This document shows, one piece after another, positions 10,559-55,291 of a DNA stretch of 64,000 nt. The notes under the pieces are model-generated. The model was not told the DNA's origin and made no database searches. It saw only the letters and a program-made list of their open reading frames with translations. The position numbers and the translations under genes were made by a program. This stretch comes from Giardia intestinalis (lineage: Eukaryota), in NCBI GenBank assembly GCA_000002435.2, contig CM018793.1, one strand, 5' to 3'. Each line of letters begins with the position of its first letter. The first letter of the stretch is position 1.

Positions 10559-11784
10559 GCAGTTGCTAATAATGATACTGATGCTGTTTTTTCGTTAAGG
10601 AAAGCACACGCTAAACGCCGTAATGATAAGGGGTACACAGCACTTATGCTTGCGCTCCGCAAAAGCTACTACGACATTGCAATGATCCTGGCACGGCATG
10701 AACACGGAGTCCAGGATTCTCTCCAGAAGACCGCTCTTATGTACTGCATTGACCGCCAGTCACTGCGTCTCATTGATGTCCTCGGACCTTATGAGAAGGG
10801 TCTTGCCGACTTCAAAGGAAAGACTGCCCTCTATCATGCATATGAGAACAAGAACCTAAATGTTATGGAAAGGCTCTGTAAGTACGAAGCTGACCTACCA
10901 ATACCTATTCTCGAGGGATCTGTAACAGGTAGAACTCTCTTGATGTTGGCTGCGCGGGAAGGAGACTGTGCGTGATTAAAGATTCTGATACCGTACCAGG
11001 CCGGAAGACGCGATAGTATGAGCTGGTGCGCTTCACGCTACGCCATAGAGATGGGTCGAGTTGCGTGCTTGAAGCTGCTTATCACACATGAAAAGTGCCT
11101 GCTGGGGGAAGATGGTTTTACGTAGCTGATGATAGCCGTAGCAATGCGCTCTGCAGAGCCACTGGTGCAATACAAGGATAGCATCCGCCGGCGTACAAAC
11201 GATGGACGCACAGCCCTGATGATCGCTGTGTATAGCAATAACATCCCAGCAATCAAGCACTTGATCGCCAGTGAGAAGGGGATGCGGAGACCGGACGATC
11301 GAACTGCGCTCATGATTGCTGCGGAGAAGGATAGTGCAGAGGCATGCCGGCTCCTGGCGCCTCATGAGTCGGGGATACGCATATCCAGCAATATACACCT
11401 GAGCAACAAGCAAGAGATCGGAAAGCCAGTAGCACTGATGCTGGCAATCGTCGCGAAAAGCGTACGATGCCTGAAGTGGCTGGGCGAGTATGAAAAAAAG
11501 ATGACAGAGATCAAGCAGCAGATGACGTCTCTCATGATTGCAGCGCAGGTGGGGCACGTCGAGGCAGTTCAAGTTTTACGAAGTGCCGAGGCGGGCGAGC
11601 AGGACTCTTAGGCTGGACAGCGCTAATGCACGCTGCGGCGTGGGATCATCCAAACATAGTCAAGTATCTCGTCCCCTACGAGCTGGGCTTGGTTGATGAG
11701 AATGACCAATCGGCTCTCGATCTTGCGGTGAAGTACGGACAACTGTCGTGCATAAGGATCCTAGCTCCAGCTTGTGCCCCATAG
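10559..11784 (+). pseudogene. Ankyrin-repeat (Protein 21.1-type) pseudogene: no start codon, two in-frame stops and one frameshift
   Basis: A continuous ankyrin-repeat translation (…GYTALMLALRK…, …DGRTALMIAV…, …DRTALMIAAEKD…) is interrupted by an in-frame TGA at 10973-75 and a TAG near 11123. A 1-nt frameshift near 11609 (D-S-L-G-W-TALMHAA continues in the +1 frame) runs to the stop at 11782-84. There is no ATG between the upstream stop (10556-58) and the first ankyrin unit. Confidence 0.6.
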
Positions 11785-12185
11785 TTCGGAGAGGCAGCAC
11801 TACAGAAGCTAGCCGCAGGCTCTACGGCGCCGGCGGCTCTCCGACCTGAAATCCAATCTGAGATATGTCGCTATCTTGGCCTTGGTAGAGTTAAGTAGGC
11901 CACCCTTCATTTAGTACGGGGCTGTTATTAGTTAACGCCGAAGCAGAGATCCGCGCATGGAGACATCAGCTATGCTTCATATGCTCTCCGTCGACCACAT
12001 TATGCACGCGCTTGTAAGTAGGCCGGTACGTTTCAGGGTTGTGCTTTTATTTTGACAAACTTATTGACTGGAAGAATGTAAGACTCGGCTACGTTTTGGG
12101 TAAACAACAAGTACAACCACTTTAGTGGTGGCTCCCTGGAGACCACGCGTAGTAACCAACGATAGATTACAGGGAAATTATCACG

Positions 12186-14084
12186 TTGCTACTTGCTGAA
12201 AATTGCAATAAAATGTTGATGTCTATGTCAGTCGTGCTTCTTCTGGTGCGGTCTTCTACATCTGCCAGTTGTGATGTTGACTACTGCACCGAGTGCGTCC
12301 CAGACTACCCCGATAACTGCATGATATGCCAGGATGACTATAAGCTAGACGTGGAAACGGGCAAGTGCGTTCCATGCCCAAAGGGTACATGGGGTCCCAG
12401 GTGTTCCACACGCAAGTGCTGGCTTACCACACGTGTCAATTGTCTAGAATGTAGTAGCACAGACCGGTGCTGGACTTGTGAAGACGGGTACTATGTGACG
12501 TGGTATGGGGGCTGTGGTGCGTGTGCAGAAGGCACCGGAGGCTATGAGTGTCAGGACCTCATCTGTAATGGGGTTGCACTAACGAATTGTAAGACTTGTG
12601 ATACTGCAACAGAGGGGACCTGTGCAGTTTGCAAGGATTCTTACAAGCTGATTCCAGAGACCAATAAGTGCGAAGCGTGCCCCGATGGCCGAATCGGACC
12701 AGAGTGCATTTCGATGAGGTGTCTGGCCACAACCAGAGACTATTGCCTCGAGTGTCTTTCTGGGACGAATCGTTGCAGCCGGTGTTACGACGACTTTCAT
12801 CCTAATGAGCTTGGAAAGTGTGTTCAATGTCAAGGGAATACCGGTGGCTACAATTGCGAGAAGACTAAATGCAATGGAAAGATATCCGAGAATTGTGCGA
12901 CTTGCTACTCAGCTGAAGATGCAATCTTGGAGCCAGGGGCATGCAAAGTTTGCAAAGATGGGTACTACAAGGAGTCTAGTAACTCCATTACTTGTACACC
13001 GTGTCCAGACAATAGATTGAGTGATGGGATTACATGCAATGCGGTGTTGTGTTCTGGGACCCGCTACGATAACTGCCATACGTGTACAGAAGGCGAACCA
13101 ACGTGCCAGCTCTGCATTGATGGTTATGGTCCCAATGAGACGGGCTCTTGCACGCCGTGCCCTGATGGCAAAGGCGGGCCAAACTGTGTGGGGACAAAGT
13201 GCACAGCTGATCAACTGGCCCTTGTTGACGACTGTAGATTCTGTGGAGATGATGGAGCGTGCGTTCAGTGTGCTGCAGGCTTTATGCTCGATAATAAGGA
13301 GTGCGTTCCTGTCAATGGATGCCAGAGCCCCAACTGCAGAAGCTGCACCGTCACAGAGAGAACAGAGACTTGCAAGCGTTGCCAAAAGGGATATTATGTT
13401 GTTGGGGGCAGGTGTGCACGTTGTGTCGGGAACTGCCTCGACTGTAAGAGCGCAAGCATCTGTGTTGCGTGCGAGGACGGTTATACGTTGACGGTCGACG
13501 TTTGCGTATTGAATTCCCCAGACGTAGACGTGGACTCCTGCAGCATCTCAAACTGCCTGGTGTGCCTGGCCAACAACCGAGACGTTTGTGCCACGTGTTC
13601 TAGCGGCTATCTATGGAATGCAAATGAAAAGGCCTGTGTTGTAGCTTGCCCAGATACTAACTGTATTGATTGCAATCAATCCACTGGTGAGTGCAGCGCC
13701 TGTGGCGTTGGATATGGAATGCAGGGGGCTCTCTGCTATCCTTGTACAATTAGTGATTGCTCTAGTTGCAGCTTTCGCACAGATTCTACATCAGGAGAGA
13801 GCACCGAAGTATGCGTACGGTGCTCTTCTGGAGAACTGACCACTGATGGGCAATGTAAGGAGATTGTGCGAATGAGTAAGAAGACGATTTTCGCTTCATC
13901 CGTTGGGATCGTTGTCCTAGTTCTCCTAGTGTGTATTGGTGTTGGACTCTTCTTCGTTTTTCGACGTAAGCCAGCTCAACAACTCGATGTTACTTCAGAA
14001 ACTCGTCTTATGAACTCTCAGAAAAATATGGAACCGACCTCTGTTGACACCAACCCCGAATGTGTGGAGTATGAAACTGACTAG
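12186..14084 (+). CDS. High-cysteine membrane protein (HCMP, VSP-like CxxC/EGF-like repeats, type I TM)
   Basis: Signal peptide MSMSVVLLLVRSSTSAS; dozens of CxxC motifs; a single C-terminal TM segment (IVVLVLLVCIGVGLFFVF) plus a cytoplasmic tail that does not end in CRGKA; AGTAAAT poly(A) signal about 50 nt 3' of the stop. Confidence 0.85.
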   Translation: MLLAENCNKMLMSMSVVLLLVRSSTSASCDVDYCTECVPDYPDNCMICQDDYKLDVETGKCVPCPKGTWGPRCSTRKCWLTTRVNCLECSSTDRCWTCEDGYYVTWYGGCGACAEGTGGYECQDLICNGVALTNCKTCDTATEGTCAVCKDSYKLIPETNKCEACPDGRIGPECISMRCLATTRDYCLECLSGTNRCSRCYDDFHPNELGKCVQCQGNTGGYNCEKTKCNGKISENCATCYSAEDAILEPGACKVCKDGYYKESSNSITCTPCPDNRLSDGITCNAVLCSGTRYDNCHTCTEGEPTCQLCIDGYGPNETGSCTPCPDGKGGPNCVGTKCTADQLALVDDCRFCGDDGACVQCAAGFMLDNKECVPVNGCQSPNCRSCTVTERTETCKRCQKGYYVVGGRCARCVGNCLDCKSASICVACEDGYTLTVDVCVLNSPDVDVDSCSISNCLVCLANNRDVCATCSSGYLWNANEKACVVACPDTNCIDCNQSTGECSACGVGYGMQGALCYPCTISDCSSCSFRTDSTSGESTEVCVRCSSGELTTDGQCKEIVRMSKKTIFASSVGIVVLVLLVCIGVGLFFVFRRKPAQQLDVTSETRLMNSQKNMEPTSVDTNPECVEYETD

Positions 14085-14278
14085 TTATTTATCATAGCAT
14101 AATCTGCATTGATAATCTCGCAGTATGTGCTAGTAAATGTTTTCTTGAATCAAGAAGATGCAGCGCCATTCTAGGTAGGTGTGTCTCTTGCTCGTTCATC
14201 AACGGGGATCCAAATCTAGAGTCTGAAATTTGAAAATCAGATGTCGTCCACTCCTGGTAGAAGAGCCTTGTGCTTTCT

Positions 14279-14448
14279 CCAAGGCAATAGAGGGCCTGAA
14301 ACTGGTGATGGATGCGCCGATCACTCGCCGCACTAGGCCAACGCTGGCCAGGATCATCGCCCGCTAGTCGAGATGGACCCACACGTGACCTATGTGAATC
14401 CCTCGGCAAGAGATGGGAGCCCTGGAGTGCTTGGCTGACAGAGGCGGA
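14279..14448 (+). repeat. Dispersed repeat, copy 1 (core 31-mer ggacccacacgtgacctatgtgaatccctcg)
   Basis: Aligns with 55155-55291: ccaaggcaa…gtgatgg…atcactcgccg…gaga(t/c)ggacccacacgtgacctatgtgaatccctcg…tgcttggctgacagaggcgga. Copy 1 carries an extra roughly 33-nt insertion. Confidence 0.65.
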
Positions 14449-15120
14449 TTGATCCTGACCGTACCGAAGAGTGGTGGTCTGGGCCACCTGCCTGGGGTCT
14501 GCTGCAGCAGCTGGCAGTGCCTGACACCCTCGAGTAGACGGGCGCCGGTTGTAGAGAGAGACGACCTCGATGAACTGGTCCTGATCGCTTCTGATGCTTC
14601 GGATGACACCCTTCAGAGAGGTGGCCCTGGACCGACGCCTCGACAGACCGAATCATTCCCCCAGGTGTGCTGTGCAGTGCAGATGGACCAGCCCACACGT
14701 CACTGAGCCAAACACGCTGCACAAGGTGAGCGTCGACACGGTCTCGTGCTGGGTGACGGAGCACCTGCAAGAGCGCACCGCAATCCATGAATAGGAGGGC
14801 CATACTTCTCCCCCGACACAACGCATGGGAGCTGTCCACTGGCATCCACGAACGCGTACTATGACTCCAAGATAGAGGTGCATGGGGAGCGCACCCTTGA
14901 TAATGGAACAGATAGTGCCCTCCACGAGGAGACGAAGAGGCACCCCGAGGAACGGGGTGGACACCCGGGGTCGTGGGGCGCGATCTTCGTCACGGAAGAC
15001 CAGAGCCCTGGATTCTGTGGGGGCCAGATCGCAGTGACCGACGCAAGGCCCGAGACAGCAGGTGCCCACTCAAGCGTCAGACAGTAGTTGGCCAAGGGAA
15101 GGGAGGAATCCTCAAAAAGC
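14449..15120. other. GC-rich, T-depleted (plus-strand) non-coding island 3' of HCMP-1
   Basis: No coherent ORF and overlapping short ORFs on both strands. The plus strand is rich in A/C/G and visibly poor in T. Confidence 0.4.
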
Positions 15121-15175
15121 ACCGCGAAGAACAGTAGCAGCTCCCGGAGGGATGAACATAAAGTTCTTCTTTTCT

Positions 15176-17791
15176 TTAGGATTGGATGGCATCCGAATTT
15201 CGGATTTTGGACTTTGCCCAAGAGTAAGTGAGAAGCCCATCTGCCCAGAGCAATGGTGGTTTGCAGGGATATTTACTCAGACAACAACTAGCAAGTTGAC
15301 TTTGGTAAAAAAGAGTATGTCTTCTGTTATTTTCTGCTGCCAACATGAGAGCAGTCTCACCATCATCATTCTTCTTGTCTTTATCAGAAAGGTTCTTCTT
15401 AACTCTTTCAGTATCGCCGGCGAAGGAAGCGCACATGACTGGGGTCTAGGATGAGGCCCCGTGTTTGTGGAGAAGCAGAGCTATGCTTGTGTGCTTGTTC
15501 TTAAGATCATGCATGAACACCGTGTTTCCAGCCTTGTCCTTCATTCCATTATGAGCTGGTATAAGCAGCTCTACTAGCTTTGCGCCCCCCTAATAACAGC
15601 CCGCATAAGTGCTGTCATACCATCATCATCTGTTGGGTCCTCATAAGATATAAGCATCTCAGCAACTTCTAGATGTCCATTTTTAAGAGAATAGTACAGA
15701 GCATTGTGATTTTTCCTATCCTTCAGTTCCTTCTGGCTTGGTATCAGCAGTCTCACAGAGTTTATGTCACCTTTCATAGCCACTTTCATAAGTGAAGTAA
15801 CACCATTGTCATCTAGCATTTTTGTTAGAAAGACCATCTGTATGAAAGGAGCATCAAAATTCTCATTGTTGCAAACTGTGTCCCAAATTTTCCTATAGAA
15901 TTCAGCAGAATCAGCAAGGGTGAGGAACAAGCGTTCACTCGAAGCAAGTTGATTGATGACTTCGGCAACAAGTGTCTGTATGTCTCTGCGGATACCTTCT
16001 ATTTGTTGTTTGTAAAGGTCCGATTCATCCTGGTTACCATTCTTGTCCTCACAGGACGTGTCCCGAATGAACCAGAAGCTGAAGTCGATGTAACGACGGA
16101 AGCTATTACGCAATTTGGAAGGGACTGAGTTCTCATATATTCCTTTGATATCATTGTTAAGTGCTTCCTTCATGTGATCTTCTCCCTTTCCATTACACCG
16201 ATGGATATCGATGAACAGCCTAAGTTTGTGATATATATTTTGACGTCGTTGCGGGGCTGGAAGTAGACTGAGAAGATCGATTTGAGGAGATTGGCGCAGA
16301 ATCCTTCTACACGACTAACATCTGTCTGCAAAATATGAACAATAAGAATGTCGGCAATGGCAGATGCGAAAGCGCCTATACAGCGTTCAATATTCTGATC
16401 ATTTTCTGTGGCACGCTCTTTGCTCTCGGACCCCTTACAATAGAGTAGTAGTATGGTCGGATAGGATCCTGCACCTGGGATGAATCCCGCTGTAAGCCCC
16501 TTGGTCGTCTTTTGTCAGTCGTCATCTTCATCCAACGCCTTGAGGCATGTTCCAAAGAGGTCGTTGAAGAGGGTTGACCTGCTATATGACTGGTCAAGAA
16601 TAACGACACGCGCATAATGAAGGGAGTCAGAGCTGGGATGCTCCGCGCAAGAGCCATATACTTCTTGCTGTATGCGCCCCCGTCTGTAACAAAAGGAGCC
16701 TCTATTCTTCAATGAATAGGGTCGATACCACTGTCTTCCTCAGTAAGGTGTTCTTCAGCAGCTTCAACACTTGTACCACTGAAAGGATATACAAGCGGGG
16801 GCTTAGACATGTTCATGGACGTAGAAGAAGTTAAAGAAACCGTAACATTTGTCGGAGTGGAGCGTTCTGCAAGATGTTCGGATTCCTTATGTTGATCCTC
16901 CGCTTTAATTGCAGGGCTATTGAGTGTTTGGAAAAAGCCAATGATCTTTCTGGTCGTGGGCTGCTCTGCCGGGTCCAGGATAATATCTTCTCGATGACAG
17001 TTCTTACAAATTCATCTGTGATGGCGCCCAAATCAGGCCTCCACTCATTGTCAAAGACTGCTTTCGCATCCTCTGGCTCCCAAAGTGTGAGAAGCTCGGC
17101 AAGCTCATACATGACGACTCCGGAGGCTCAGATATCCGAAGCGGTGCTCGTCTCGTATGAAGGTCTCGGGGGCTATGTATGCCGACGTTCCTGCAAAGGT
17201 GCCTCCACTATGCAGAGAGTCCTTGCAGAGCCCAAAGTCTGCGAGCACGATGCGCTAGCCGTCCCTATTCATCAGAGTTGGCGGGCCCGAGGTCCCCGTA
17301 GACGAGGCTGTAAGATAAGCTCCCGTCTTCGGCCACCTTGCGAGGGTTGTGGAGGTAGGCGAGGGCGTCAGCCATCTGCTCTAGGAGAGGGAACATCAGC
17401 CCCTTGGGACTGGGTTTACGAGCTGCCCTGTAGGCAGTGATAAATTTCTGGAGATCCCCGTGGTGGCGGTCCATGATGACAAAGATGGGTCGTTGCTCCT
17501 GATCACCTGGTGATACTTGATGACGCCGGGCTGGGAGAGTCTCGTAACAGTTTTCAGTTCGCACTCTGTGAGCTTCTTCTCACTACGCTTGATCATCCTC
17601 TCCTTCACAGAAAGGCCTGGACACCCATCGATGGCGCGAACGGCACCGAAGCCCCCTTTACCTAGCAGCTCGCCTTCGCGCTGATACAGCCCTTCGGGAC
17701 TGAACATGGGGATGCTATCGAGGCCACTGCCAGCGCTCTCTGCAGCACGAGTGGGACTTTCACTGACCATGTCATGCGCAATTAGATTCAC
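15176..17791 (-). pseudogene. Decayed NEK-like kinase + coiled-coil + ankyrin-repeat gene, fragmented by multiple frameshifts
   Basis: Collinear minus-strand ORF fragments in different frames: an N-lobe (LGKGGFGAV…VIKYHQVI; 17396-17791), a middle part (VIMDRHHGDLQKFITAYR; 17265-17564), a C-lobe (16831-17112), coiled-coil and ankyrin units (NGVTSLMKVAMKGDINSVRLLIP; 15574-16173) and more ankyrin (DGETALMLAAENN; 15176-15436). The architecture and motifs parallel the 51781-53335 gene. Confidence 0.55.
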
Positions 17792-18489
17792 GCTTTCTAT
17801 TACGCCAAACTAACAATTACTGTACTGGGTCCAATTTTCGCAGAATCTGTGGGTAGATAACAATCATGGATTCGGTGAGCCTCAGCCTTGCTACCTCCTG
17901 GTCGAACGCTTTTCCTCGCGCATCATTACCCAATCCCAATCAGCACAGAAGCCTCTGAAGTCGTGGGATTGCAACCAAAGCGCCCTTAGTGAGACAGATC
18001 TTACGAATTGACCCCTTCTGTCCATCAATCTGAGTGCACGGAGCCATCTTGTGCCAGTGTGAGCTCCTGTGCAGCAAAATAGGTACTGTGCTGCTGGAGC
18101 CTCGCCTCACGCGGTCCAGAAGTCTCACGAGTAAATTCTCGCTCAATTCCTGGCCAATCCGGAGACGAGGGCTGGTTGTAGACAACATACTAGAGGGTCC
18201 CCTCTATTAGTGTATCTAAAACCTGGCACCTTCCCCGGTCGCTCTGTGGGTGTGTGCTCAGACTATGTGTGGGCGTCGCTCAGCCTTGGATTCAGCTTAC
18301 TCACCAGCACATGTAGTCTATGAGTAGTGCCTCGCTTCATGGTCTTTCTTCATGGTGGATGATAGATATGGGTTGCTACTATCTTTTTAACAATGCTTTC
18401 ACTTGTCTCGACGACAGCAGCTATTAGGTCTCTGGCTCGCTATAAGGGGCATCGTTATTTGTTCTCGGTCGCTGCTTCCCCTGTGAGTA

Positions 18490-18700
18490 AGCAGATCTTC
18501 TCTCGCCACCTCTCCAGCTCCACTGGCTGGGCCCCTCGATGTCCGTCTGGCTGTGGTTCTGGGTCAGCGCTCTACAGTCGCGGTCACCTGGATCTCATGG
18601 CGGGCCGGCTGGTGGGTGAGGCAGGGTTGGTGGGGCGGTGAGGCCGGAGGGGCTCCTGGTGGGGACCGGGTGGGGCGGTGTTCGTATGTGCCCTGGATCC
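18490..18700 (+). repeat. Left arm of an imperfect inverted repeat of about 210 bp
   Basis: Nts 18490-18700 align to the reverse complement of 20281-20500 at about 85-90% identity. One example is a 52/53 match in gggccggctggtgggtgaggc(a/g)gggttggtggggcggtgaggccggagggg; another is cactggctgggcccctcg(a/g)tgtccgtc(t/c)ggctgtg. Left has a 12-nt insertion. Confidence 0.7.
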
Positions 18701-20280
18701 GGTGGACTGGGGTGATCATAGCTGTGGTGACTGGGGGCTATCCATCTGTGACTCACCCCTCTGTGGGCTCGTGGTCTGTGAGTGCCTCCACCCAGACAAC
18801 GCCTCAGGAGCCGTGCACACCGGGACAGAGAGGATGACCAAGGGAGTCAGGCAGCCCTACCATGAGGGTGCACAGCAGCCAGCCTGAGCTGTAGGGTCTG
18901 CTCGAGCGATGTAGTGGCAGACGACTCCCTCTGACAGCAGCCCTGGTGACTGCACTGGTCTGCTCTCGAGACTGAGTGACAGTGCACACAGATGGACCTG
19001 AGTGCAGGAGGACCATCCACACACGGACAGACTGTGTGGACCCAGAGAGGACTGGAGTCTGCTCGGGACACGCTGACTGTGCCCCGTACGAGAGCCCCAG
19101 GCAACCACCCGAGCACCCGAGAGGCAGTGACAGACACGGGCACCAGAGATCCCCGGCCAGACACATTACTGTGCTCATCCACAGGGGCATCAGAGGGCCA
19201 GGTGAAGTCACCCTCACAACCAAGGGCCTGATAGGAAGCCAGAGGACTCAAACACTACAGCACAGCAGGCCCAAGGGAGGCACACTCCAGGCAGGTGAGC
19301 AGTGGCAGAGCCCTGACAGCTGCCAGCCCCCCATGACACCCAGGCAGGCACGACTCGCCGAAGACTCCGCTGGCCTCCATCGATGACCCAGGGGGCAGCA
19401 GCCAGAGGAGTGAGGAGGCCTTCGGATGACACAAGAGGCCCGGCTGTCCAGCAGGCGATGGAGCACAGGTGGTCTCTGAGTACCACCCAGGCACAGGACT
19501 GACCATCAGAGTGATGCCCGATCACAGAGACGACCACGAGCACCCTCCACTGCACTCTGAGGGGCTGTCAATCATCCCACTGCCTCTCATAGCAGACCTC
19601 CTTGGGGGCAGTGCAGTGGGTGACCCGGCTCGTGCAGGAGGGTGCACACCCCTCAGTATAGGGTGCCCCGGCTCTCCCCGAGGGGCCATCAGAGCCACGA
19701 GGATGGGTCAAGGTCCTGATAGATCACATCGGGAGCTCCCGAGGGCACAGCAGGTGATGTTGGGTGACCCTCAGCGTACTCCTCTCTGATGGTAGAGCAT
19801 CCTGAGACCAAGGAGGACTCACCCCTGCCTATGAACAACACACAGCGCTCCACAACAAGGATCTACCAGGAGCAGCACAGCTGGCCACGGGGACAGTGCA
19901 GCCACCAGTGCCCCACCGTGCCAGTCTTCTGGGCCATCACACTAGAGGCATGACAGAACCCCATCCCATCCACAGGGTTGTCCATACCCCTGCTGGCCCG
20001 AGGTGAACTACCGTCGAGGCACTGGACAGGGCATGCCAGGAGGCTCAGCAGACCCGCACAGAGCATCAAGATGGGCTGCGATGGTCTGCCTCACCCCTCA
20101 CGCACCAGCCAGACAGAGCAGCAGTACTACTTGAGACATGCAGGGGCCAAGGGAGGCACTCAGTCAAGGGACACGACACGATCGTCGGTGCCTCTGTCTC
20201 GGGAGTGCAACGAAGGCTGGAGATCAGACACAACCACCTTGGCAAACAGAGTGGGGATCACCCACCACCTCAATGGTCCA

Positions 20281-20500
20281 CCGGACCCAGGGGCACATAG
20301 AGACACCGCCCCCGGTCCCCTCCGGCCTCACCGCCCCACCAACCCCGCCTCACCCACCAGCCGGCCCACTGTGAGACCTAGGTGACTGGACTGTGGGAGC
20401 GTTGCCCGGGACACAGCCGGACGGACACCGAGGGGCCCAGCCAGTGAGAGAGCCTGGTGGCAGCCCCCGACAGACGGGGCATCTAAAAAAGACAGCGACC
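20281..20500 (-). repeat. Right arm of the inverted repeat (reverse complement of 18490-18700)
   Basis: Same alignment as the left arm. The peptide TGWAPRCPSGC is encoded on opposite strands at both arms (ORFs 18393-18641 + and 20350-20592 -), confirming the inverted symmetry. Confidence 0.7.
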
Positions 20501-20798
20501 CGAGCTTCACCCACCAGGACGGCAGACCAAGGAGAGGCGCCACGGGTAGAGCAGAGAGTCTGCGAAAAGGCCAGGGCCCTGGACGCGCACACTCAAATCG
20601 AGTACATGCCCGCGAAGTGGCAGAGGGGCGCACCAAGCTCTGGATGCGCTAATAGAGAGGAATCCCTAGCATGTTATCCACAACCAGCCCTCGTCTCCAG
20701 ACGGCCAGGACATGGGTGAGGCTTACCCGTGGGACGTCTGGACGCACCAGCAGCCGGGGCCTAGTAGCATAATCTACATAATCCATATACAGCAACGC

Positions 20799-20817
20799 GT
20801 TTACTACCTAAGTACAT
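20799..20817 (-). promoter_or_regulatory. VSP extended polyadenylation signal (ACTTAGGTAGTAAAC on the coding strand)
   Basis: The reverse complement of 20799-20817 is tgtACTTAGGTAGTAAAC, directly after the TAG stop. It contains the AGTRAAY motif, and the same block follows the mini-VSP. Confidence 0.6.
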
Positions 20818-22728
20818 CTACGCCTTGCCCCTGCAGATGAACCACCAGCAGAGGAAGCCGACGAGGCCGCCGACAACAACGATGACAGCGACGGAGATCC
20901 CCGCTATGGCGCCTGTGCTAAGGCCGCTCTTGTTCGTGTTCCCGCCGTTGTTATCGTTACCACCATCGTTAGTGACATCTGTCTTGACGTAGCAGGTGAC
21001 AGGACCGCCATTGCCACCAGTTGGAGGGGCACAGCTTACGCAATTTGGGACACCAACAATATGGCTACCATCATTGGGATCATTGGTGTCGCACTTCACA
21101 CATTTTGCTCCGGCAAGATAGTATCCCGGAAGGCACGTTTTGCATGCCTCCTTGTTTGCTACCTCACATGTTTTACAACCAGATGCACATGCTGGACAAG
21201 ATCCAGTGCTAGCTTCTGGTTGTTGTCCATTAGCACAATTCGTACATTTTCCATTCTGAGCATTGCTACATAGGTTGCTGCCTGGGTATGCAGCCGACTG
21301 ATAGCATCCGCCAGATTGCAAGAAGTATGTGGTTGTACACGCTTTGCATGTTCCATCATTGTTATCATTTGGCATGCATCCAGTTACTGCCCTTGTCGTT
21401 GTCGACACACAGACGCCGTCCACCGGGGCGAACCCTGCCTTGCACCTGCTGCAGTACTTCGAGCCCCCAACGACGGCCGTGCACTGGCCAGCCTCGCAGT
21501 TCTCTGCGTACCTTCCCGTGCACTCTGGGATGCATGTGCCGGTGGCTCCAGTATTGCTTTTGCTCAATACAAGCCCAGGATAACAAGCTGTACAGGAGGC
21601 TTCACTATCACCATCACATTCTGCACAAGAATTATGGCAATTAGTACATATCCCGCTGACATCACGAGTTCCTGCAGGACAGCCCTCCATACACATGTTC
21701 TTTAAGGGGCTTAGGCTTTTACCTCCAGTACACTCTTCACACATATTCTCTTCATTACACTTTATACAATCCTGTATATCACATAGTACACACTTCGTTC
21801 CGTCGGCGTTGGGTTGATTAGTACCTGCTATACAAGCAGAGCACGTGATGAGAATTGTACCTTCAGGATTATCCTTCAAAGCACACGTTTTGCAGTCTGC
21901 TATCCCTTCTGAGCATTTCTTACACATTTTTCCATTAGTAGGATCGTCAGCATCATCAGTGAAGTGGGAGTTATCATTACATCCACTTTTATCAACACAT
22001 GTATTAGAGTCCTCGGTTTCGCCCTTTTTTAGATATGGCTTGTTAGCGGTTGCCTTGCACTTCGTGCATTTTCCTGCTCCTGCATCGCATTTAGCACAGT
22101 TATTGTCCTGGCATGCTGTGCATGCTGCCCCATTGCTGTCAACAAAGAACCCCTCAAGACATGACTCACATACGGCAACCTTGTCTTGGCGAGCAGCACC
22201 AGCACTGGCTGGCGGCTGACACGTAGCACAGTTCAGAATTCCTTTATACGTATTTCCACCATCCACAACTCCAGTTGCATCATTGCATGCAATACAAGAG
22301 TCCTTATTGTTAGCTGCACTTGGGTTTTTAAAATAGCCAACTACGCAACCCTCACAAACGCCAGGAGTTTTTGATGACACACGACCAGCAGCTGCGGCAT
22401 CGGCGCAAATAAGGCGTCCAACGTCCCCGCCAATTGCATAGCATCCGTTCTTATGGAGGAAGTAAGCCCCGTCGCATTGCCCACATGTCTTTTCTGTTGT
22501 TATTTCAGCTCCAGCATCAGTCTTACATCCAGCAGTTGTGACAGTAGCATCCCCCTTTGGTGTGCATACTCCGTTGATAGGAACGTCTCCTTCAGCTTTG
22601 CATTCTGTACAGATCTCAGTATCACTTGTACTTATTTTTACACACTGCGTACATTTAGCAATTTGGGCATCCGATTGACAAGCTGCCGTAAGAGCGCTCA
22701 GCACGAAGTAGAAAGCTACCAATAACAT
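20818..22728 (-). CDS. Variant-specific surface protein (VSP), 636 aa
   Basis: Signal peptide MLLVAFYFVLSALTAAC, many CxxC motifs, and the invariant C-terminus …GLVGFLCWWFICRGKA*, which is the VSP TM segment plus CRGKA tail. Confidence 0.9.
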   Translation of the reverse strand: MLLVAFYFVLSALTAACQSDAQIAKCTQCVKISTSDTEICTECKAEGDVPINGVCTPKGDATVTTAGCKTDAGAEITTEKTCGQCDGAYFLHKNGCYAIGGDVGRLICADAAAAGRVSSKTPGVCEGCVVGYFKNPSAANNKDSCIACNDATGVVDGGNTYKGILNCATCQPPASAGAARQDKVAVCESCLEGFFVDSNGAACTACQDNNCAKCDAGAGKCTKCKATANKPYLKKGETEDSNTCVDKSGCNDNSHFTDDADDPTNGKMCKKCSEGIADCKTCALKDNPEGTILITCSACIAGTNQPNADGTKCVLCDIQDCIKCNEENMCEECTGGKSLSPLKNMCMEGCPAGTRDVSGICTNCHNSCAECDGDSEASCTACYPGLVLSKSNTGATGTCIPECTGRYAENCEAGQCTAVVGGSKYCSRCKAGFAPVDGVCVSTTTRAVTGCMPNDNNDGTCKACTTTYFLQSGGCYQSAAYPGSNLCSNAQNGKCTNCANGQQPEASTGSCPACASGCKTCEVANKEACKTCLPGYYLAGAKCVKCDTNDPNDGSHIVGVPNCVSCAPPTGGNGGPVTCYVKTDVTNDGGNDNNGGNTNKSGLSTGAIAGISVAVIVVVGGLVGFLCWWFICRGKA

Positions 22729-25700
22729 TGAAGCCCTTCTTAGCTTATTATATGGACAAGAATAAGATATCCAAAGCTAAAGCACTCTACCTGATCATAC
22801 TATATCAGATAATCTCAAGAGTCCATCTCCTATGATACCTTTGTTTGAGAGATGCAAATTAGTGGGTAGTAAATGTGTCTATTGTATAAGCCATCCCTAG
22901 GGACCCTTTGGGCCTGGGCAAGCGGCCTCCAAGGAAATTCATCCTCGTGCAGCACGCAGGGAGGCAGAAACTCAAAAATAATCTGCTGGACCGCCTCACA
23001 CACCTGCTTCTCCCCTGCCCTTCAGACAATGAAAGGACGCCCTGAGTGTCCCCGCTGTGCCACAGATTTGCTGCTGGCTCCTCTCCTAACGCCCTTGTGT
23101 CCCCGAGGTGTTGGCCCCTGCGCCTTCCCTGCGCGGATCGGGTCCCTGCGAACCCCCATTCACCGGCACTCTCTTCTCAGTCCTTGCAGCATTCTCCTTC
23201 ATCAGATTATGTTTGCGGCTTCTGACTGTTGTAGGAGAGCTGGACTCAAAGACGAGCTCCCGTGAGATTCTAGCAGAAGGTTACGGTGGTCGCTAAGGTC
23301 CATGGAAGATGTGAATCGGTGTAGATTAGCCCGTGAGACGCTTTGGTTTGTTGAGCGTGGACGGCGCTATTCTTCGCTTTTTGTAATGGATATTTTAAGA
23401 TACCTCACCGCACGACAAAGACTCAATTGGAGCTCAGGAAACGCAGGCCAACACTTCTACATTTGGACAAGGAGGAAGCACTGCCCAAACCGCGTTGTCT
23501 CCTAAGCTAAGAAACCAGGACTCCCATTACCCCTTTTGGATCATCCTGGTGCTGTCCATTGTAGCAGTAGTAGAACCACGATTGCTTGCAGTGCCTGAAT
23601 CTGTTGGTATGAACGACAAAGAGTTTCTTGTGGTGGGCTACTTCGGCAGAAAAAACTTAGGCCTGTCGTGTCGCTCCGCCAGCTATTAATCAGACCCGTA
23701 ATCAGCGTCCCTGTGGTCTCAGGTAAGGTACTAGGGTAGTCGGATCTCTATCTGCTGTCAGGAAGTCGAGCAGCGTCTGATTGTCACCGTTAGTCCAACT
23801 TATGGTTGGCCCTAGGTAAACAGATCGATTGATACAAGCATCTTATCTCTGGACTCACGAACCATACCATACGAGGAATTGCACCACTACAGCCCAACAT
23901 ACTTCTCTGATGCGTAATGCGAAAAGCAGACCTCATTGCATAGCTGTAGGAGTCTGATAATACCCGACTGGGGCATTATATTTTATGTGGTCTCCAGGGT
24001 AGTTTCACTAAAGGCCGGAGCACCGCTATACATAGACTGGTATGAAAGGTGGGATCCAGCAGCATACACCTTGAGTTGGGAGTTCCATAAGCATGCGTCT
24101 CTGATACAACTCGCCAAGAATCTTGTAGGAAGCTGGCCTAGGTCAGTGACTGGAAGATCTTCAATGGGCAGACGACTATTTTGGTCTACCAGTCGCTTAT
24201 CCCCCTTGTCGTGAAGGATATCTGCTAATGTCTAGTGCTGCGGACTGGGTAGCCCTTGTTCATCTGTAAGACTCGACTGGTGTACGTTGTAGACGACTGA
24301 CGAGACTGATATCATCCTCCATCAGGTGGCTCTGGGTGAGTAGGCGAATTCTGTAGTTGATCAGTTATTTTAAGAAAGGCTGCACTTATGAAGCCATAAC
24401 TACAACTTGCATTCGACAGACAAAGGTGCCCTTGGGCTGTGGTACTCCATACAGGTTCCTCGGGATGTGTGGTACCTCAGCGTAGTCTCCAAGAGGGTAG
24501 CCCTGCCTAGTTGAGCCTCGCAGACCCAAGCACAGTACAGTACCTTTTCAAGTTTATAGAGTCAAGCGCATCTCAGACAACGAGGACAGAAGGAGACCCA
24601 GAGGCGCTAGCTGGGCTGCTCCGATCCCTGCTGTCCGGGGAATCAGCAGGGCCGCAGGATGACAGGGCCCCATTTCGTGCCCCAGGAGGCCGTGCCTTGG
24701 TGGAGGTACGCGCCACGGTCACTGTTAGCTACCCGCTAACGAGGTACTGCTGTGCTTGAAGACCTCCCGGAATGACCTTTCTCGGTTTGCTGGCCATGAG
24801 CTGGGTCATCGCGCCAGCTGATTGGATGAGAAACAATAATAGTATTATCCAGACAATGAGCCGAGAAGGCTGATGCTGACTACGTATCTCTCACACTGAG
24901 CATACCCATTATGCAGCGTAAGGGATTTGACGTCCTAGGTGACTAGGTGAATCTAAAGTGCTCGTCAGTAACGATATGCATGCAGGCTCCAGACAGGGCT
25001 CTGAGAAAATGTTAAAGAGCACAAGACCTGCTGGACTATATAGGGCACACAATGAATGCCTACGCGGTAAACAGATTGACCCTTTTCCTTGGTAGACAGA
25101 ACTCTGGTCTGCAGTAGTCACCTACATGATGCGTGCCTTTGCAGGACCGATGAAGGCACCCGCTGATCTGGAAAGGTCATCAGCAGTGGCCACACAAGAT
25201 AGACAAGCAGAGGACGGGAGCGGACTCATCCTCATGGGGATGAGCAATCTAAACTACACAACGCGTGCGCCAATCTTTGGCCGAAACAGAGATGCACTGT
25301 AGGACATCACGCAATCCAAGAGACACTTTGGCGATTCATCTGTTGTGGGAGGACGCAAGTGAGACATTTGTGGACAGCAACCACGCCGACTGGTACCGGC
25401 CTGTACAGTATGCCTCTACAATAGATCTTCGCCTGTATACGAAGGGAAGGTGAATACCCTCGGCTCCAAACGAAGCAACTCTTGATAGATATTACGCTGC
25501 CGTAAATGCATAAAATCAAAAACTAGCATCTAGTTCGTCTGCAGACCCTACGACTTCTCTAGGTTTAGAAGTCAGAGAGACACTATAGGTGTCCCTGCTG
25601 TAATCTGGACCGGTAGCTAGTCTCTCTAGCACCGGTCTTACCCCACTGATCTGTTGATTACCCTTACATTCTCCATGCGAACCGGCTCTCCAGGAGCCGC

Positions 25701-28700
25701 CATGCACGGATAGTCTTCCAAGCACCTAGCAGACATTCTTCCTCCTTGAAGCGTGTCACCGAGGACTAGGCATCATGAGGTGAGCGCAGCCAGAGGCAAA
25801 TCTCCTTGTATTCTTGCTTACTACTAATAGCAAGTATGCAAGCGAGTACACAGGCTCTTGACGAGTGCATTGTGATTTAGGCCAGTCATCACACTAGGGT
25901 TATGACACTTGATGCACAGATTTCTATTTTTAGCTTTGTATGCATATCTATGTTTCACCTTGAAAGACGGTGAAGTGCTCTGCGGGGCCTTTTTGGATAT
26001 ACAGCTGTCACTATAGCTGATGGGGGAGTAGGTGCGAAGACCTTATTCTTAAACAAAAGCATCTCTAGTATAACCGAGCGCTGTCTTCCATCAAAGTAGA
26101 CACCTTAGATGGAATGACATCTACTCTATTTACCATGGCATTGTGCGGGCCTGTATACGCTACTAGAGAAGGATCCTGCAATATCTGCTTAATTTGTCAG
26201 GCGTATACGTCTCTTGTTGTAGCGAACGCAGTGGTAGAGACAATCATCGCCGGAAGGTAATAGGACGTGCTAGCTCAGTGTAACTTTGTACAGGTAGAAG
26301 CTACAGTACGCAACCAAGAGCATAACGCGCCAGCTGTTCATGCTACTCTCCTCCCTTGTATTGCTGTGCTTACGAGTACCTGTACTGCACTGTGTGTCAG
26401 ACTGTGGCACAGAGTATCCCCAGGCTACTCATTCAGTGGATTAAAGCTAGAACGACTGATCCTATGGACAGATGGGCATCCCAAGAAGACGGCAGCCGTT
26501 ATTGTTGTTCCGGATTTTTTAGTACTCAAGCACCAACCCTATGGGGGCACCCTACTTTCCAAGTCTCTGCGCCCATATCGAGGCGTGTTGTCTGGATGGC
26601 CTAGTCATGGCCACAAGGATGATGCAAAATGGTGGTCGTTCGCAGGCCCGGCCCCAATTCGCCCCTAGCCCTAAGTCACACTCAACTGGTGCAAGATGCT
26701 CTTCTTCACCGTAGGTATGCCTTTCGCTAGATCGACAAGCTGCTTGTAACAGGCCTGCCTTGCTGACCAGCTCTGCTGGCACTTGGTTCCCCTCTGATCA
26801 CTTAAGGGCGTAGCCCCAGGCTGGGTCCACGAGACAGCGCATGCTGATGGCAGAAGACAACACAGCTCTTCTCAAATATCTCGACCTGTCAACTAGTGCG
26901 GTCCCAAAGCGCACTGTGGGTCTTGGTAGACACGCAAGTACGAATCCGGACACTTTGAGATGCTAAGATTACTCAGCAAGGACAACACAATTCACCCTGC
27001 TTCATCTGAGAGGTCAAAGCCCCAGCTATTCGGAAGCCCAGCATCAATATTCATCTGGCTTATATACTCGGGTGCGCCTTGTTGGAAACCACATTGAAGA
27101 CTCCAATTCAGCGGTTACCTGGACTCACCATCCATTACAGTCGTGCCACCATCAGGGTTAAGTTTCCTACCTCACCTGTGGTCTGTTACAAAGGCATAAT
27201 TCGCGACCGGATGCAAAGGGCTTGATCTTTTCGGTACACTATGGCTACCGGTGTACTTTACTGGCTCACTGACTCTGCCAGCATCTTCAGAGACAGAGAC
27301 GCGCCACCATCACAGATCACACAGCCCTCTGCACATCCTGGAAGGGCTCTTGTGTTGTGCAACGTCAGATCCTGCCTGTCTGATACAGAACACATGGTAC
27401 TGGACGGCTAGAGAGGGAACGATGGGCGCTTGCATCCCACACCGAACCAGTCTGACTGCACTTGGACCGTAGCTCTTTGATCTCGCTGCCATAGACAGCG
27501 AAGGACACATCCTTCTGGAGATGGGATCTCTCGAGGGTTGGCTCATGGTTCAGTCTGAGCCCAGAACTCTAGGTATGGAGTGCACCACGCAATGATGAGG
27601 ACAGTAGTAGCAGGGACACTGTTTGGACCAGGTGGCCTTCTCACATTCCTCATTGCACGTGCCTGCATCCGATGCGGTCCACTCCTTCGATATGTAACAG
27701 TTGTGGCCCGGATGGCTAGAGTCTGGACCCACAAGCTATTGCGCCTGTTGTAGCGGCAAAGAAGACGAGTCACTTGCTTGTAGGCTTTGTCTACCTTCAG
27801 CCCTATCCAGATCTGCCGTTGTGCTAACACTACTGGTACCACGCGGCCTGTGTGATGGTCATGTCCCCTTCCTGCCATTCCTGATACCAAGTCCGATAGG
27901 AGCATCCAACAGAATATCCCTGGCGTTGTGCAGTCTTCATATGATGATCGCGTTAGACTCACTGCGCACCCACCGTTGCAGTGGTTGAACTGCTGGGCTC
28001 GGGAACTGCTGGATACTTTAATACTGATAGACGATGCCAGAACAAGCAAAGATAAAAGGCCTCAAAACCCCCTGCCCGTGAATGGACTCGTTATGTGCAA
28101 CGTGCCTACCCCTATCGTGTCATGTAAGACAGTAGGATTTTGCTGGTACAGTGCATTGATACAGTGATGATGCAGAGAAGGCAGCTCTGACTTACATAGC
28201 GATAGAAAGCCTGGTGATATAGATAGCGACATTATGTGATGGCGGACCCTAGCCGATAGGCCATGGGGATACAGAGCCCTTGCAACAAAGCTGTTCTTCA
28301 CATGAAATAGTAGAGTAGCATGATGCACCACAGGAGAGAGTCCCGCTTCCTCGTTCTGTCTGTTACATTATGGCCCAAGCATCGAACTTGCTGATAGCTC
28401 CTTATTCATTCCCCTATGAAGCCCTGGACACCCATTTAATCATACTACCTAGCCCTGCATAAAGATAAAACCCCACACTTAGCACTAATGATTGAATACC
28501 TCATTCTGCCATAACGTTTCCGGTGCACTGATTCCAATCTCGAGTAGCTAAGTGGATGGATGCATCCTTGTCAGGGGTAGTGTAGGCATGAAAGACTAGA
28601 CCCCAACGACAGGTTTGCACTTTAGCTTCTCTTGTTTACTCCTTGGTGGCGTCTTATATCTCCACTCAGGCGTGTGTTCTGAGATCGCTATAAGGCATAC

Positions 28701-51194: not shown

Positions 51195-51982
51195 TAGCCG
51201 GAGTTCATGTGCCACTGCTCTTCTGTCAGGCTGATGTGTTGCCGCGAGCAGTGAGAGACAGCCGCTCTTACTCTCTTGATCAGTTGGACTGGAGAAAGAC
51301 GAGATAGGAGCATGCCCACCGGAGGCCAGTTGATAGCACGGTTCCCCCTGACTTCGATAGGAACAGGATGAGTGAGGGCCAGACTCAGATCGCACCTCTC
51401 TTGTGGAGTGATTGATTGGGGTGCACTCCTGTACATTGCTGTCGCTGTATCACTGGGCCCACCTGCAGGTGCGCTCAGAGATCCCACGGGTAAGCCGCGC
51501 CCACTTCCTGGTCGTCCGAAGACTATGGCTGGTTGTGGATAACATACTAAGAGCTCCTCTCCATCGATGCATCCAGAGCCCTGTGTGGTCCCAGTCGGCG
51601 TGCTCTGTCTGGGGCGCTCCGTGTCGGCCTCCAGGATCTGGCCTGCTCAGGGCCATACGAGCCGCTAGTATGCCCTCCTTGGCCTGCCATCGACAGCTCG
51701 CACTAGGCGCCTTGCTCGGGCAGTAACCAAGGTCACACCAAAGGGTGGCTCCGGATTGCAGTTAAAATCAGCGGCGGCTGTTGACTCCACTCCTTGTCCC
51801 AGCCACCGCAGAGGGTGCCCTGGGAGATGCTAGTAACAGTGCAGTTAGCAGCTTTGCAGGGCCGATGGGCGCTGGTGGCGTTCCCGTGTTCAGCCCCAAA
51901 AAGTTGCATAGACGCCTAGGTAACATGCTCAGCAGGCACCCTCAGTGTTATCTACTCTCTCAGGGGATGCCCCTACCTTGCT

Positions 51983-55154: not shown

Positions 55155-55291
55155 CCAAGGCAACGGAGAGCCAAAGCTAGTGATGGCACTAATCACTCGC
55201 CGTGCTGGTTGAGACGGACCCACACGTGACCTATGTGAATCCCTCGACGAGCAAGTTGGGGCCCCTGGGGTGCTTGGCTGACAGAGGCGGA
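55155..55291 (+). repeat. Dispersed repeat, copy 2 (same family as 14279-14448)
   Basis: Shares the exact 31-mer ggacccacacgtgacctatgtgaatccctcg and the flanking blocks ccaaggcaa…atcactcgccg… and …tgcttggctgacagaggcgga with copy 1. Confidence 0.65.

What the first reader, a model, noticed from the sequence alone, without database searches (positions are those of the whole stretch)
18490..20500. A roughly 2-kb GC-rich non-coding element bounded by about 210-bp imperfect terminal inverted repeats, just 3' of a VSP gene
Nts 18490-18700 and the reverse complement of 20281-20500 align over about 210 bp at roughly 85-90% identity. They include a 53-nt block with a single mismatch and one 12-nt indel. 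The roughly 1.58-kb core between the arms has no coherent reading frame, with 60-140-aa ORFs in all six frames. It is GC-rich and strikingly T-depleted on the plus strand, and it contains an internal roughly 20-nt direct repeat. In such a compact genome, a non-coding unit of this size could be a foldback or TIR (non-autonomous DNA-transposon-like) element. It could also be a locus for a long structured RNA whose ends pair, or the scar of an inverted duplication next to a recombinogenic VSP gene. I know of no matching family described for diplomonads.
Basis: seen in the sequence. Interest (0 to 1): 0.85.

Follow-up and report, generated by a model that had tools for sequence, protein, structure and literature searches.

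The report
Repeated non-coding module behind Giardia VSP genes
The inverted-repeat-bounded GC-rich stretch is real, and it is one copy of a repeated non-coding module (two ~500-nt inverted arms around a conserved ~1.6-kb core) that sits directly behind surface-antigen (VSP) genes in Giardia and has the size and geometry of the known spacer between tail-to-tail VSP gene pairs, here with only one VSP attached.

Summary
The arms run 18083-18707 and 20276-20772. They flank a 1,568-nt core, and the whole unit begins about 45 nt after the stop codon of VSP GL50803_00113304 (Giardia WB, chromosome 5). It is non-coding: no protein domains, ORF frames differ between copies, and indels are mostly 1-2 nt. 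It is not a one-off scar. At least 10 other sequence variants exist, including two ORFs from the old WB annotation, and three contigs carry copies. The far arm ends at the same nucleotides next to four unrelated neighbours. Cores are about 89-93% identical, while the attached VSPs are only 44-51% identical in protein. In one copy the core is inverted relative to its VSP. The geometry (arms ending 542 nt past the stop, 2,735-nt footprint) matches published tail-to-tail identical VSP pairs (2.5-2.8 kb apart, flanks matching for about 515-560 nt). I read it as an unpaired copy of that palindrome-spacer module, spread by recombination. I could not test DNA homology to true pair spacers, because the WB chromosomes were unreachable. 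A foldback-type mobile element remains a live rival, though I found no target-site duplication, subrepeats or transposase. There is no evidence for a conserved RNA fold.

The parts
18083..18707 (.). Distal (left) arm, an inverted copy of the VSP-proximal arm. It is the most decayed arm of the family and carries about 90-130 nt of extra sequence near 18400-18515.
   Evidence: It aligns end to end with six other arm copies at 60-72% identity and has 77 private changes. Its outer end, GTACTGTGCTGCTGG, falls at the same point as in L018, L017 and L016. Homology to L018 stops at about 18083.
18708..20275 (.). Conserved non-coding core (1,568 nt): GC 61.5%, T 14.5% on the plus strand.
   Evidence: 85-96% identical per 100 nt to L018 and 88.6-92.6% pairwise among four copies. 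Indels are mostly 1-2 nt and ORF frames differ between copies. No Pfam domain and no Rfam match.
19018..19068 (.). 51-nt block identical in all four DNA copies; the most conserved piece of the core.
   Evidence: The longest invariant run is 51, against 30.7 expected from shuffled columns, P = 0.016. It is also recognisable in most ORF-derived copies.
20276..20772 (.). Proximal (right) arm. It starts about 45 nt after the VSP stop codon, and its inner end lies 542 nt beyond the stop.
   Evidence: It is 74-82% identical to the arms of other copies.
20773..20817 (-). VSP 3' untranslated region (ATGTACTTAGGTAGTAAACGCGT...), lying between the stop codon and the arm.
   Evidence: The same sequence precedes the VSP-side arm in L018 and L019.
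20818..22728 (-). VSP gene GL50803_00113304 (636 aa, CRGKA tail). Its tail abuts the element.
51455..51591 (+). Isolated fragment of the outer part of an arm, lying between a short VSP-like ORF (50766-51395, minus) and a NEK kinase gene (51983-53335, plus).
   Evidence: blastn 78.4% to 20637-20761 (E 1e-23) and 76% to 18117-18192; three-way alignment; Pfam identities of the flanking genes.

Best explanation
Window 18083-20772 is one unpaired copy of a dispersed, non-coding repeat module that lives at the 3' ends of Giardia VSP and related cysteine-rich genes. The module has two inverted arms of about 500 nt around a conserved core of about 1.57 kb. It has the architecture of the spacer that separates identical tail-to-tail VSP pairs. 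Shown here: the anatomy, the lack of coding capacity, the multiple copies, the discrete outer ends, the attachment to different VSPs, and one copy whose core is inverted. Inferred: the module is the hinge of a palindrome (VSP, arm, core, inverted arm, inverted VSP). In complete pairs, arm-to-arm recombination keeps the two halves identical. Recombination between the arms can flip the core. Recombination within the 3' end that all VSPs share moves different VSP bodies onto the module. In this window the far side has no VSP; a decayed NEK kinase gene lies there instead. The short remaining arms are no longer homogenised and have drifted to about 72-80% identity. The module itself probably has no product. 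Its effect would be structural, as a recombination substrate that duplicates and reshuffles surface-antigen genes.
For: Geometry: the arms end 542 nt beyond the VSP stop and the footprint to the mirror point (about 18082) is 2,735 nt. Published tail-to-tail identical pairs have flanks matching for 318-559 nt (mostly 514-559) and ORFs 2,393-3,222 nt apart (PMC2996952 Table 5). All 12 such pairs in the chromosome assembly are 2,526-2,813 nt apart with no genes between them (PMC7000408 Table 2). Their spacers fall into groups described as 'very similar', and one also resembles a spacer between non-duplicated VSPs (preprint Table S4). Multi-copy: an exhaustive HMMER search and a profile search found 14 ORF relatives of the core, including WB proteins GL50803_118549 (present twice) and GL50803_31995. 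At least 10 variants overlap the same segment. Full or partial copies: L018 is 83.5% identical over 2,490 nt and has its own 87% inverted arms; L017 and L019 carry further copies. Neighbours at the far arm: VSP tail (L019), tail of a cysteine-rich membrane-type ORF with no Pfam match (L017), Mec-17 gene tail (L018), NEK pseudogene upstream region (window). Attached VSPs are only 44-51% identical in protein, while cores are 89-93% identical. In L019 the core is inverted relative to a VSP locus that is colinear with the window's. Arm site patterns show more changes shared within an element (17) than side-specific (9) or crosswise (5). Non-coding.
Against: DNA homology between this element and the spacer of any true identical tail-to-tail pair was not shown. 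The WB chromosome record is not in the contig index, and the supplementary tables hold no usable spacer sequence. No significant remnant of a VSP coding region lies left of 18083 (score 32 against a shuffle mean of 34). In two copies without a far-side VSP (window and L018) the far arm ends at the same nucleotides, which random deletion of a partner VSP would not predict. The four core copies differ mostly by private changes (84 singleton sites against 15 informative ones). That pattern looks like a burst of copying rather than ongoing homogenisation. The two arms of one element are no closer to each other than to arms of other copies (83% in each comparison).
Confidence: 0.58

Rival explanations
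1. It is a non-autonomous foldback-type or long-TIR DNA element that inserts next to the 3' ends of VSP or cysteine-rich genes. The tail-to-tail VSP pairs would be a by-product of its inverted arms.
For: Arms of about 500 nt in inverted orientation with a shared outer terminus (GTACTGTGCTGCTGG). The far end is discrete next to four unrelated neighbours. There are many copies, with a star-like divergence pattern. Element copies are far more alike (about 89%) than their flanks (68-70% DNA; VSPs 44-51% protein), as if the element arrived after the flanks diverged.
Against: No target-site duplication at either the window or the L018 copy, although the ends are fuzzy by a few nucleotides. No tandem subrepeats in the arms. 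No coding capacity or transposase relic. To my own knowledge, only non-LTR retrotransposons are established in Giardia. The arms are less conserved than the core, the reverse of most TIR families. Every copy has a VSP or cysteine-rich gene tail on at least one side, at a fixed distance from the stop codon.
Confidence: 0.22
2. It is a functional non-coding locus. It could be a read-through or independent transcript whose arms form a long hairpin of about 380 bp (a Dicer substrate or regulator of the adjacent VSP). It could instead be a cis-acting terminator or insulator between convergent VSP genes. The conserved core would be the functional part.
For: The core is better conserved than the arms, the VSP genes or the upstream non-coding flank. 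There is a 51-nt invariant block (P about 0.016). Composition is strongly strand-asymmetric. The arms pair in minimum-energy folds of either strand. RNA interference has been implicated in Giardia VSP control (cited in PMC5192507).
Against: No Rfam match at E of 1 or less. RNAalifold gives an unfavourable covariation term (+5.9 kcal/mol) and only 2 of 276 pairs with compensatory change, though the test has just 4 sequences. The core occurs in both orientations relative to the VSP, which argues against a function tied to VSP read-through. No expression data could be retrieved.
Confidence: 0.12
3. It is a single local inverted duplication scar, unique to this locus.
For: It lies in a rearrangement-prone region full of VSP, NEK and ankyrin pseudogenes, and inside a 72-kb-spaced inverted segmental duplication.
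Against: The same arm-core-arm unit is found in other contexts and in the same genome.
Confidence: 0.03
4. It is a decayed protein-coding gene or a retrotransposon relic.
For: ORFs of up to 396 aa were called on other copies. The literature reports retrotransposon relics between head-to-head VSP pairs.
Against: All such ORFs lie on the A-poor strand, where stop codons are rare. They change frame between copies. They have no Pfam domain, including reverse transcriptase. Published tail-to-tail spacers are listed without reverse-transcriptase remnants.
Confidence: 0.03

Closest known systems
Intergenic spacer of identical tail-to-tail (-> <-) VSP inverted pairs in Giardia WB (vsp1267-type pairs; Adam et al. 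2010 PMC2996952; Xu et al. 2020 PMC7000408; 'VSP like region' in Table S4 of preprint 10.1101/2022.03.07.483299)
   Same: It starts right after a VSP 3' end. It is a gene-free footprint of about 2.7 kb. The inverted 3' flanks end about 540 nt past the stop codon, around a unique centre of about 1.6 kb. It belongs to a set of mutually similar copies.
   Different: Only one VSP is attached; the identical twin of this VSP is 72,283 nt away. The arms are 72-80% identical rather than nearly identical. The far side is a NEK pseudogene. Direct sequence homology to a true pair spacer was not testable here.
Large palindromes with a unique spacer that are kept identical by arm-to-arm gene conversion, such as the human Y-chromosome palindromes (from my own knowledge)
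   Same: Inverted arms carrying genes, a unique central spacer, identity between the arms that stops abruptly at the spacer, and possible inversion of the spacer.
   Different: The scale is kilobases rather than hundreds of kilobases. The module is dispersed in many copies. In this copy the arms are short and decaying.
Foldback and long-TIR transposons (Drosophila FB, Galileo; PMC3573991, PMC4079207, seen only as titles and abstracts)
   Same: Long terminal inverted repeats, no coding capacity in most copies, multiple copies, and an association with inversions.
   Different: No target-site duplication, no internally repetitive TIRs, no known autonomous partner, and a fixed position relative to VSP stop codons.
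Segments flanked by inverted repeats that flip by homologous recombination, such as the single-copy regions between plastid inverted repeats or the yeast 2-micron plasmid (from my own knowledge)
   Same: The core is found in both orientations relative to the flanking VSP (window and L018 against L019).
   Different: No dedicated recombinase is implied. Here the two orientations are seen in paralogous copies, not as isomers of one locus.

Membership tests
Tail-to-tail VSP inverted-pair spacer | Begins immediately downstream of a VSP stop codon and 3' UTR | tested here: met
   The arm starts at 20772, 45 nt from the stop codon at 20818-20820. L018 and L019 have the same junction.
Tail-to-tail VSP inverted-pair spacer | Gene-free interval of about 2.5-2.8 kb | tested here: met
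   2,735 nt from the stop codon to the mirror point at about 18082. No coherent ORF or domain. Published range 2,526-2,813.
Tail-to-tail VSP inverted-pair spacer | Inverted 3' flanks that end abruptly about 515-560 nt beyond the stop codon | tested here: met
   The inner end of the repeat is at 20276, 542 nt beyond the stop. Published values are 318-559, mostly 514-559.
Tail-to-tail VSP inverted-pair spacer | The two flanks are nearly identical | tested here: not met
   72% over the whole arms and about 80% (gaps counted) over the inner 190 nt.
Tail-to-tail VSP inverted-pair spacer | An identical VSP in convergent orientation at the other end | tested here: not met
   No significant VSP remnant left of 18083. 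A NEK pseudogene lies there. The identical copy d113304 is 72,283 nt away.
Tail-to-tail VSP inverted-pair spacer | DNA homology to the spacer of a true identical pair | not testable with these tools
   The WB chromosomes are not in the contig index, the supplementary sequences are truncated, and the metagenome collection has no Giardia.
Foldback / long-TIR non-autonomous DNA transposon | Long terminal inverted repeats with defined termini | tested here: met
   Arms of about 500 nt share an outer terminus in seven copies.
Foldback / long-TIR non-autonomous DNA transposon | Multiple dispersed copies with the same ends in unrelated flanks | tested here: met
Foldback / long-TIR non-autonomous DNA transposon | Target-site duplication | tested here: inconclusive
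   None seen at the window or L018 copies. The ends are uncertain by a few nucleotides and only two complete copies were available.
Foldback / long-TIR non-autonomous DNA transposon | Tandem subrepeats inside the TIRs (Foldback type) | tested here: not met
   Tandem Repeats Finder finds only a 14-nt x2 repeat at 20331-20358.
Foldback / long-TIR non-autonomous DNA transposon | Empty sites or insertion polymorphism, and an autonomous partner encoding a transposase | not testable with these tools
   No whole-genome DNA search of Giardia assemblies was possible. The element itself has no coding capacity.
Described structured RNA family (Rfam) | Match to a covariance model, or a fold supported by covariation | tested here: not met
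   No Rfam match at E of 1 or less in 15000-24000. Covariation term +5.9 kcal/mol and 2 of 276 compensatory pairs; this test has only 4 sequences.
Non-LTR retrotransposon relic (GilM/GilT/GilD) | Remnant of reverse transcriptase or endonuclease coding sequence | tested here: not met
   No Pfam hit in the longest ORFs of five copies. The only protein relatives are ORFs of other copies of the same element.

The most novel reading that the evidence does not exclude
The arm-core-arm module is an active agent rather than a passive spacer. It could be a self-propagating cassette that lands at VSP 3' ends and, through its inverted arms, copies the adjacent VSP into an identical tail-to-tail twin. It could instead have a conserved core that is a functional non-coding locus (hairpin small-RNA source or insulator) taking part in the one-VSP-at-a-time expression control. 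Either reading would explain why the core is far better conserved than the antigen genes it accompanies.
Probability: 0.15. Interest if true: 0.8.

Novelty: new variant of a known kind. Interest (0 to 1): 0.45.

Why it matters
Identical inverted VSP pairs with spacers of about 2.7 kb have been called an 'interesting, but cryptic observation' (PMC2996952). Here the spacer architecture shows up as a discrete, conserved, multi-copy module. It also occurs with a single VSP and with non-VSP neighbours, and it occurs in both orientations. That turns the question of how Giardia duplicates and reshuffles its surface-antigen genes into something testable. One can catalogue all copies in long-read assemblies, ask whether single-VSP copies are precursors or remnants of pairs, and ask whether the conserved core is transcribed or processed into small RNAs. 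The practical gain for annotation is modest: this is an unannotated repeat family covering perhaps a few tenths of a percent of the genome.

Tried and rejected
1. Fetching the element from other assemblies through flanking genes failed. The exact VSP and the exact cysteine-rich membrane protein are not in the position index. The WB chromosome record is not indexed. Contigs anchored on neighbouring genes stop before the element: L001 (P15) ends 2.1 kb past the membrane-protein gene and diverges, L002, L003 and L006-L015 end at or before about window 18007.
2. A chimeric six-frame query against the word-indexed protein database returned nothing. This was a false negative, because the exhaustive HMMER search with one ORF found relatives.
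3. The exact ATG-initiated ORFs of the element are not in the collection.
4. A P15 VSP flagged as duplicated (P0233) turned out to be a head-to-head pair, not tail-to-tail.
5. Liao et al. 2014 on Giardia endo-siRNAs is not held. Searches for 'eSGR', the two gene ids, or Giardia foldback/MITE elements found nothing relevant.
6. The preprint's supplementary tables hold no tail-to-tail spacer sequence that I could match by length or by arm motif. The Franzén 2013 supplements have no expression values for the two old ORF ids.
7. Two metagenome scans, with the 26-nt core block and with the VSP 3' UTR, found nothing.
8. A decayed VSP C-terminus left of 18083 was rejected: the alignment is no better than shuffles.
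9. The 16-nt internal direct repeat was rejected as an element feature, because the pair is not conserved in other copies.
10. A hidden protein-coding gene was rejected.

Full report
**Source and context.** The window is Giardia intestinalis WB (ATCC 50803), on the 4.02-Mb chromosome of the newer assembly. Ten window proteins match WB accessions exactly. The ORF at 20818-22728 (minus strand) is a 636-aa VSP ending in CRGKA. It is GL50803_00113304 on chromosome 5. To the left of the finding lies a frameshifted NEK kinase/ankyrin pseudogene on the minus strand, from about 17800 down to 15200. Its fragments match kinase residues 36-99 and 168-212 of the intact NEK at 51983-53335 in different reading frames, and ankyrin repeats follow. 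Further left is a group-6 high-cysteine membrane protein gene at 12213-14084.

**Checking the observation.** The inverted repeat is real. Window 18518-18707 aligns with the reverse complement of 20276-20450, with 157 matches in 194 columns and a 12-nt and a 3-nt indel. blastn gives E = 4e-41. The symmetry extends further out: 18114-18216 pairs with 20643-20743 at 78.6% (E 1e-16). Once arms from other copies are added, both arms are continuous, at 18083-18707 and 20276-20772. The left arm carries about 90-130 nt of extra sequence. The core, 18708-20275, has 11-18 stop codons in every frame. On the plus strand it is 61.5% GC and 14.5% T. The right arm is 11.1% T, and the skew is mirrored in the left arm. 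The 16-nt internal direct repeat exists, but the pair is not kept in other copies.

**Coding and RNA tests.**
- Rfam finds nothing at E of 1 or less between 15000 and 24000.
- The longest ORFs of five copies have no Pfam domain.
- A word-indexed search with a six-frame chimeric query found nothing. This was a false negative. An exhaustive HMMER search with the 147-aa open segment 18807-19247 (minus strand) found four relatives at 61-83% identity. A profile search then found 14.
- All of these ORFs map to window 18600-19690 on the minus strand. That strand is A-poor, so stop codons are rare there.
- The ORFs change frame from copy to copy. Indels between the window and L018 copies are mostly 1-2 nt.

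The ORFs are therefore compositional artefacts, and the element is non-coding.

**Other copies.**
- Two relatives come from the old WB annotation: GL50803_118549, which has two ids in that protein set, and GL50803_31995. So the core is multi-copy within the same genome as the window.
- At least ten distinct variants overlap the segment around 18900-19100.
- L018 (6,072 nt) is a complete copy, 83.5% identical to window 20956-18518 over 2,490 nt. It has its own inverted arms at 87% over 369 nt.
- L017 (1,551 nt) holds part of the core plus one arm.
- L019 (6,457 nt, same sample as L018) holds the distal ~70% of a core (equivalent to window 19799-18708), an arm and a VSP.
- L019's VSP clusters at 90% or more with a VSP of isolate DH, assemblage AII. 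These contigs are therefore assemblage-A-like, and the copies are paralogues rather than distant orthologues.

**Anatomy shared by the copies.**
- On the VSP side, the stop codon is followed by a 3' UTR of about 45 nt (ATGTACTTAGGTAGTAAACGCGT...) and then the arm.
- The far arm ends at the same sequence (consensus GTACTGTGCTGCTGG) next to four different neighbours. These are the NEK pseudogene's upstream region (window), the tail of a Mec-17 acetyltransferase gene (L018; Pfam E 3e-30), the tail of a cysteine-rich membrane-type ORF with no Pfam match (L017), and a VSP tail (L019).
- Homology between the window and L018 drops to background beyond about 18083.
- I saw no target-site duplication and no subrepeats in the arms.
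- Isolated fragments of the outer arm also occur, at window 51455-51591 and in a P15 contig at L016 7364-7448.

**Conservation pattern.**
- The core is the best-conserved part, at 85-96% per 100 nt between the window and L018. The arms are at 60-85%.
- The four cores are 88.6-92.6% identical pairwise, and a 51-nt block (19018-19068) is invariant. That run is longer than chance, P = 0.016.
- Differences among the four cores are mostly private to one copy: 84 singleton sites against 15 informative ones.
- The attached VSPs are different genes. L018's VSP tail is 44% identical to the window VSP and L019's VSP is 51% identical.
- L019's VSP and its upstream region are colinear with the window at only 68-70% DNA identity, while its core is 85.5% identical and inverted relative to the VSP.

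The module is thus more conserved, or younger, than its surroundings, and it occurs in both orientations.

**Arm evolution.**
- The two arms of L018 are 83% identical, the same as either arm is to L017's arm.
- Across the two complete copies, sites shared within an element (17) outnumber side-specific (9) and crosswise (5) sites. This is a weak sign of arm-to-arm exchange.
- The window's left arm has 77 private changes and is clearly decaying.

**Link to the literature.**
- Adam et al. 2010 described identical VSP pairs separated by 2-4 kb of non-coding DNA. For tail-to-tail pairs the flanks match for 318-559 nt (mostly 514-559) beyond the stop codon, and the ORFs are 2,393-3,222 nt apart.
- Xu et al. 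2020 list 12 -> <- pairs that are 2,526-2,813 nt apart with nothing annotated between them.
- Table S4 of preprint 10.1101/2022.03.07.483299 calls these spacers 'VSP like region' and groups them as identical or 'very similar'. It notes that one resembles a spacer between non-duplicated VSPs. It also lists this window's VSP as a -> <- pair 72,283 nt apart.
- In the window, the inner arm end lies 542 nt past the stop codon and the footprint is 2,735 nt. Both values fall in the middle of the published ranges.

The link therefore rests on geometry, on attachment to VSP tails, and on L019 and L017 showing cysteine-rich gene tails at the far arm.

**RNA reading.** In minimum-energy folds of the whole element, about 380 arm bases pair with the opposite arm. 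This holds on either strand and in L018 as well, as any inverted repeat would do. RNAalifold on four core copies gives an unfavourable covariation term (+5.9 kcal/mol) and 2 compensatory pairs out of 276. No expression data could be retrieved.

**Conclusion.** The finding is a real, discrete, non-coding, multi-copy module tied to VSP 3' ends. Its most likely identity is an unpaired, decaying copy of the palindrome-spacer module of tail-to-tail VSP pairs, spread and rearranged by recombination (confidence about 0.58). A foldback-type mobile element (about 0.22) and a functional RNA or cis-element (about 0.12) are not excluded. A one-off inverted-duplication scar and a hidden gene are effectively ruled out. 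The known kind is the VSP inverted-pair spacer. What is new here is the single-VSP form, the discrete ends next to non-VSP genes, the core being better conserved than the antigen genes, and the two orientations.

Noticed in passing
window ~10700-22728 and beyond (VSP 20818-22728, membrane-protein gene 12213-14084): The VSP and the cysteine-rich membrane protein each carry two WB accessions in mirrored order (KAE8304612/640 and KAE8304613/639). The preprint's Table S4 lists the VSP pair as -> <- and 72,283 nt apart. This is a large inverted segmental duplication, and it probably carries a second identical copy of the element. WB short-read contigs break near window 10.7 kb, which fits the duplication boundary lying there.
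   Followed up: partly
window 15200-17800 (minus strand): An unannotated, frameshifted NEK kinase/ankyrin pseudogene. Its pieces match the intact NEK at 51983-53335 in different reading frames.
   Followed up: yes
window 50766-53335: A short VSP-like ORF (209 aa, CRGKA tail), an isolated arm fragment (51455-51591) and a NEK kinase gene. The kinase N-terminus appears to lie in another frame (ORF 51781-52035), so this NEK may also be frameshifted or mis-started.
   Followed up: partly
window 20463-20490, and the matching position in every arm copy: A GC-rich hairpin (GCCCC-CGACAGACG-GGGGC) followed by an A run (ATCTAAAAAA) is conserved in six of the seven arm copies and is decayed in the window's left arm. 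Its significance is unknown.
   Followed up: no
L019 185-480: This copy is rearranged. An extra arm fragment, a direct repeat of L019 1765-1907, has its outer end joined directly to the middle of the core, at the equivalent of window 19799.
   Followed up: partly
L016 7338-7448 (P15, assemblage E): Inside a 2.9-kb head-to-head VSP spacer, an arm fragment abuts a reverse-complemented piece of VSP 3' UTR. Pieces of the module therefore exist in assemblage E as well.
   Followed up: partly
window 22729-29760: About 7 kb upstream of the VSP has no long ORF. Window 22950-25599 is 68% identical to the region upstream of the VSP in L019, so this is a second, older repeated non-coding region associated with VSP 5' sides.
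   Followed up: no
window 14353-14448 and 55192-55291: A roughly 100-nt repeat at 86% identity (E 3e-24). The first copy lies in a GC-rich, A-skewed stretch (14300-15200) just past the membrane-protein gene.
   Followed up: no
method note: The word-indexed protein search gave a false negative with a long chimeric query. The exhaustive HMMER search with a single ORF found the relatives.
   Followed up: yes
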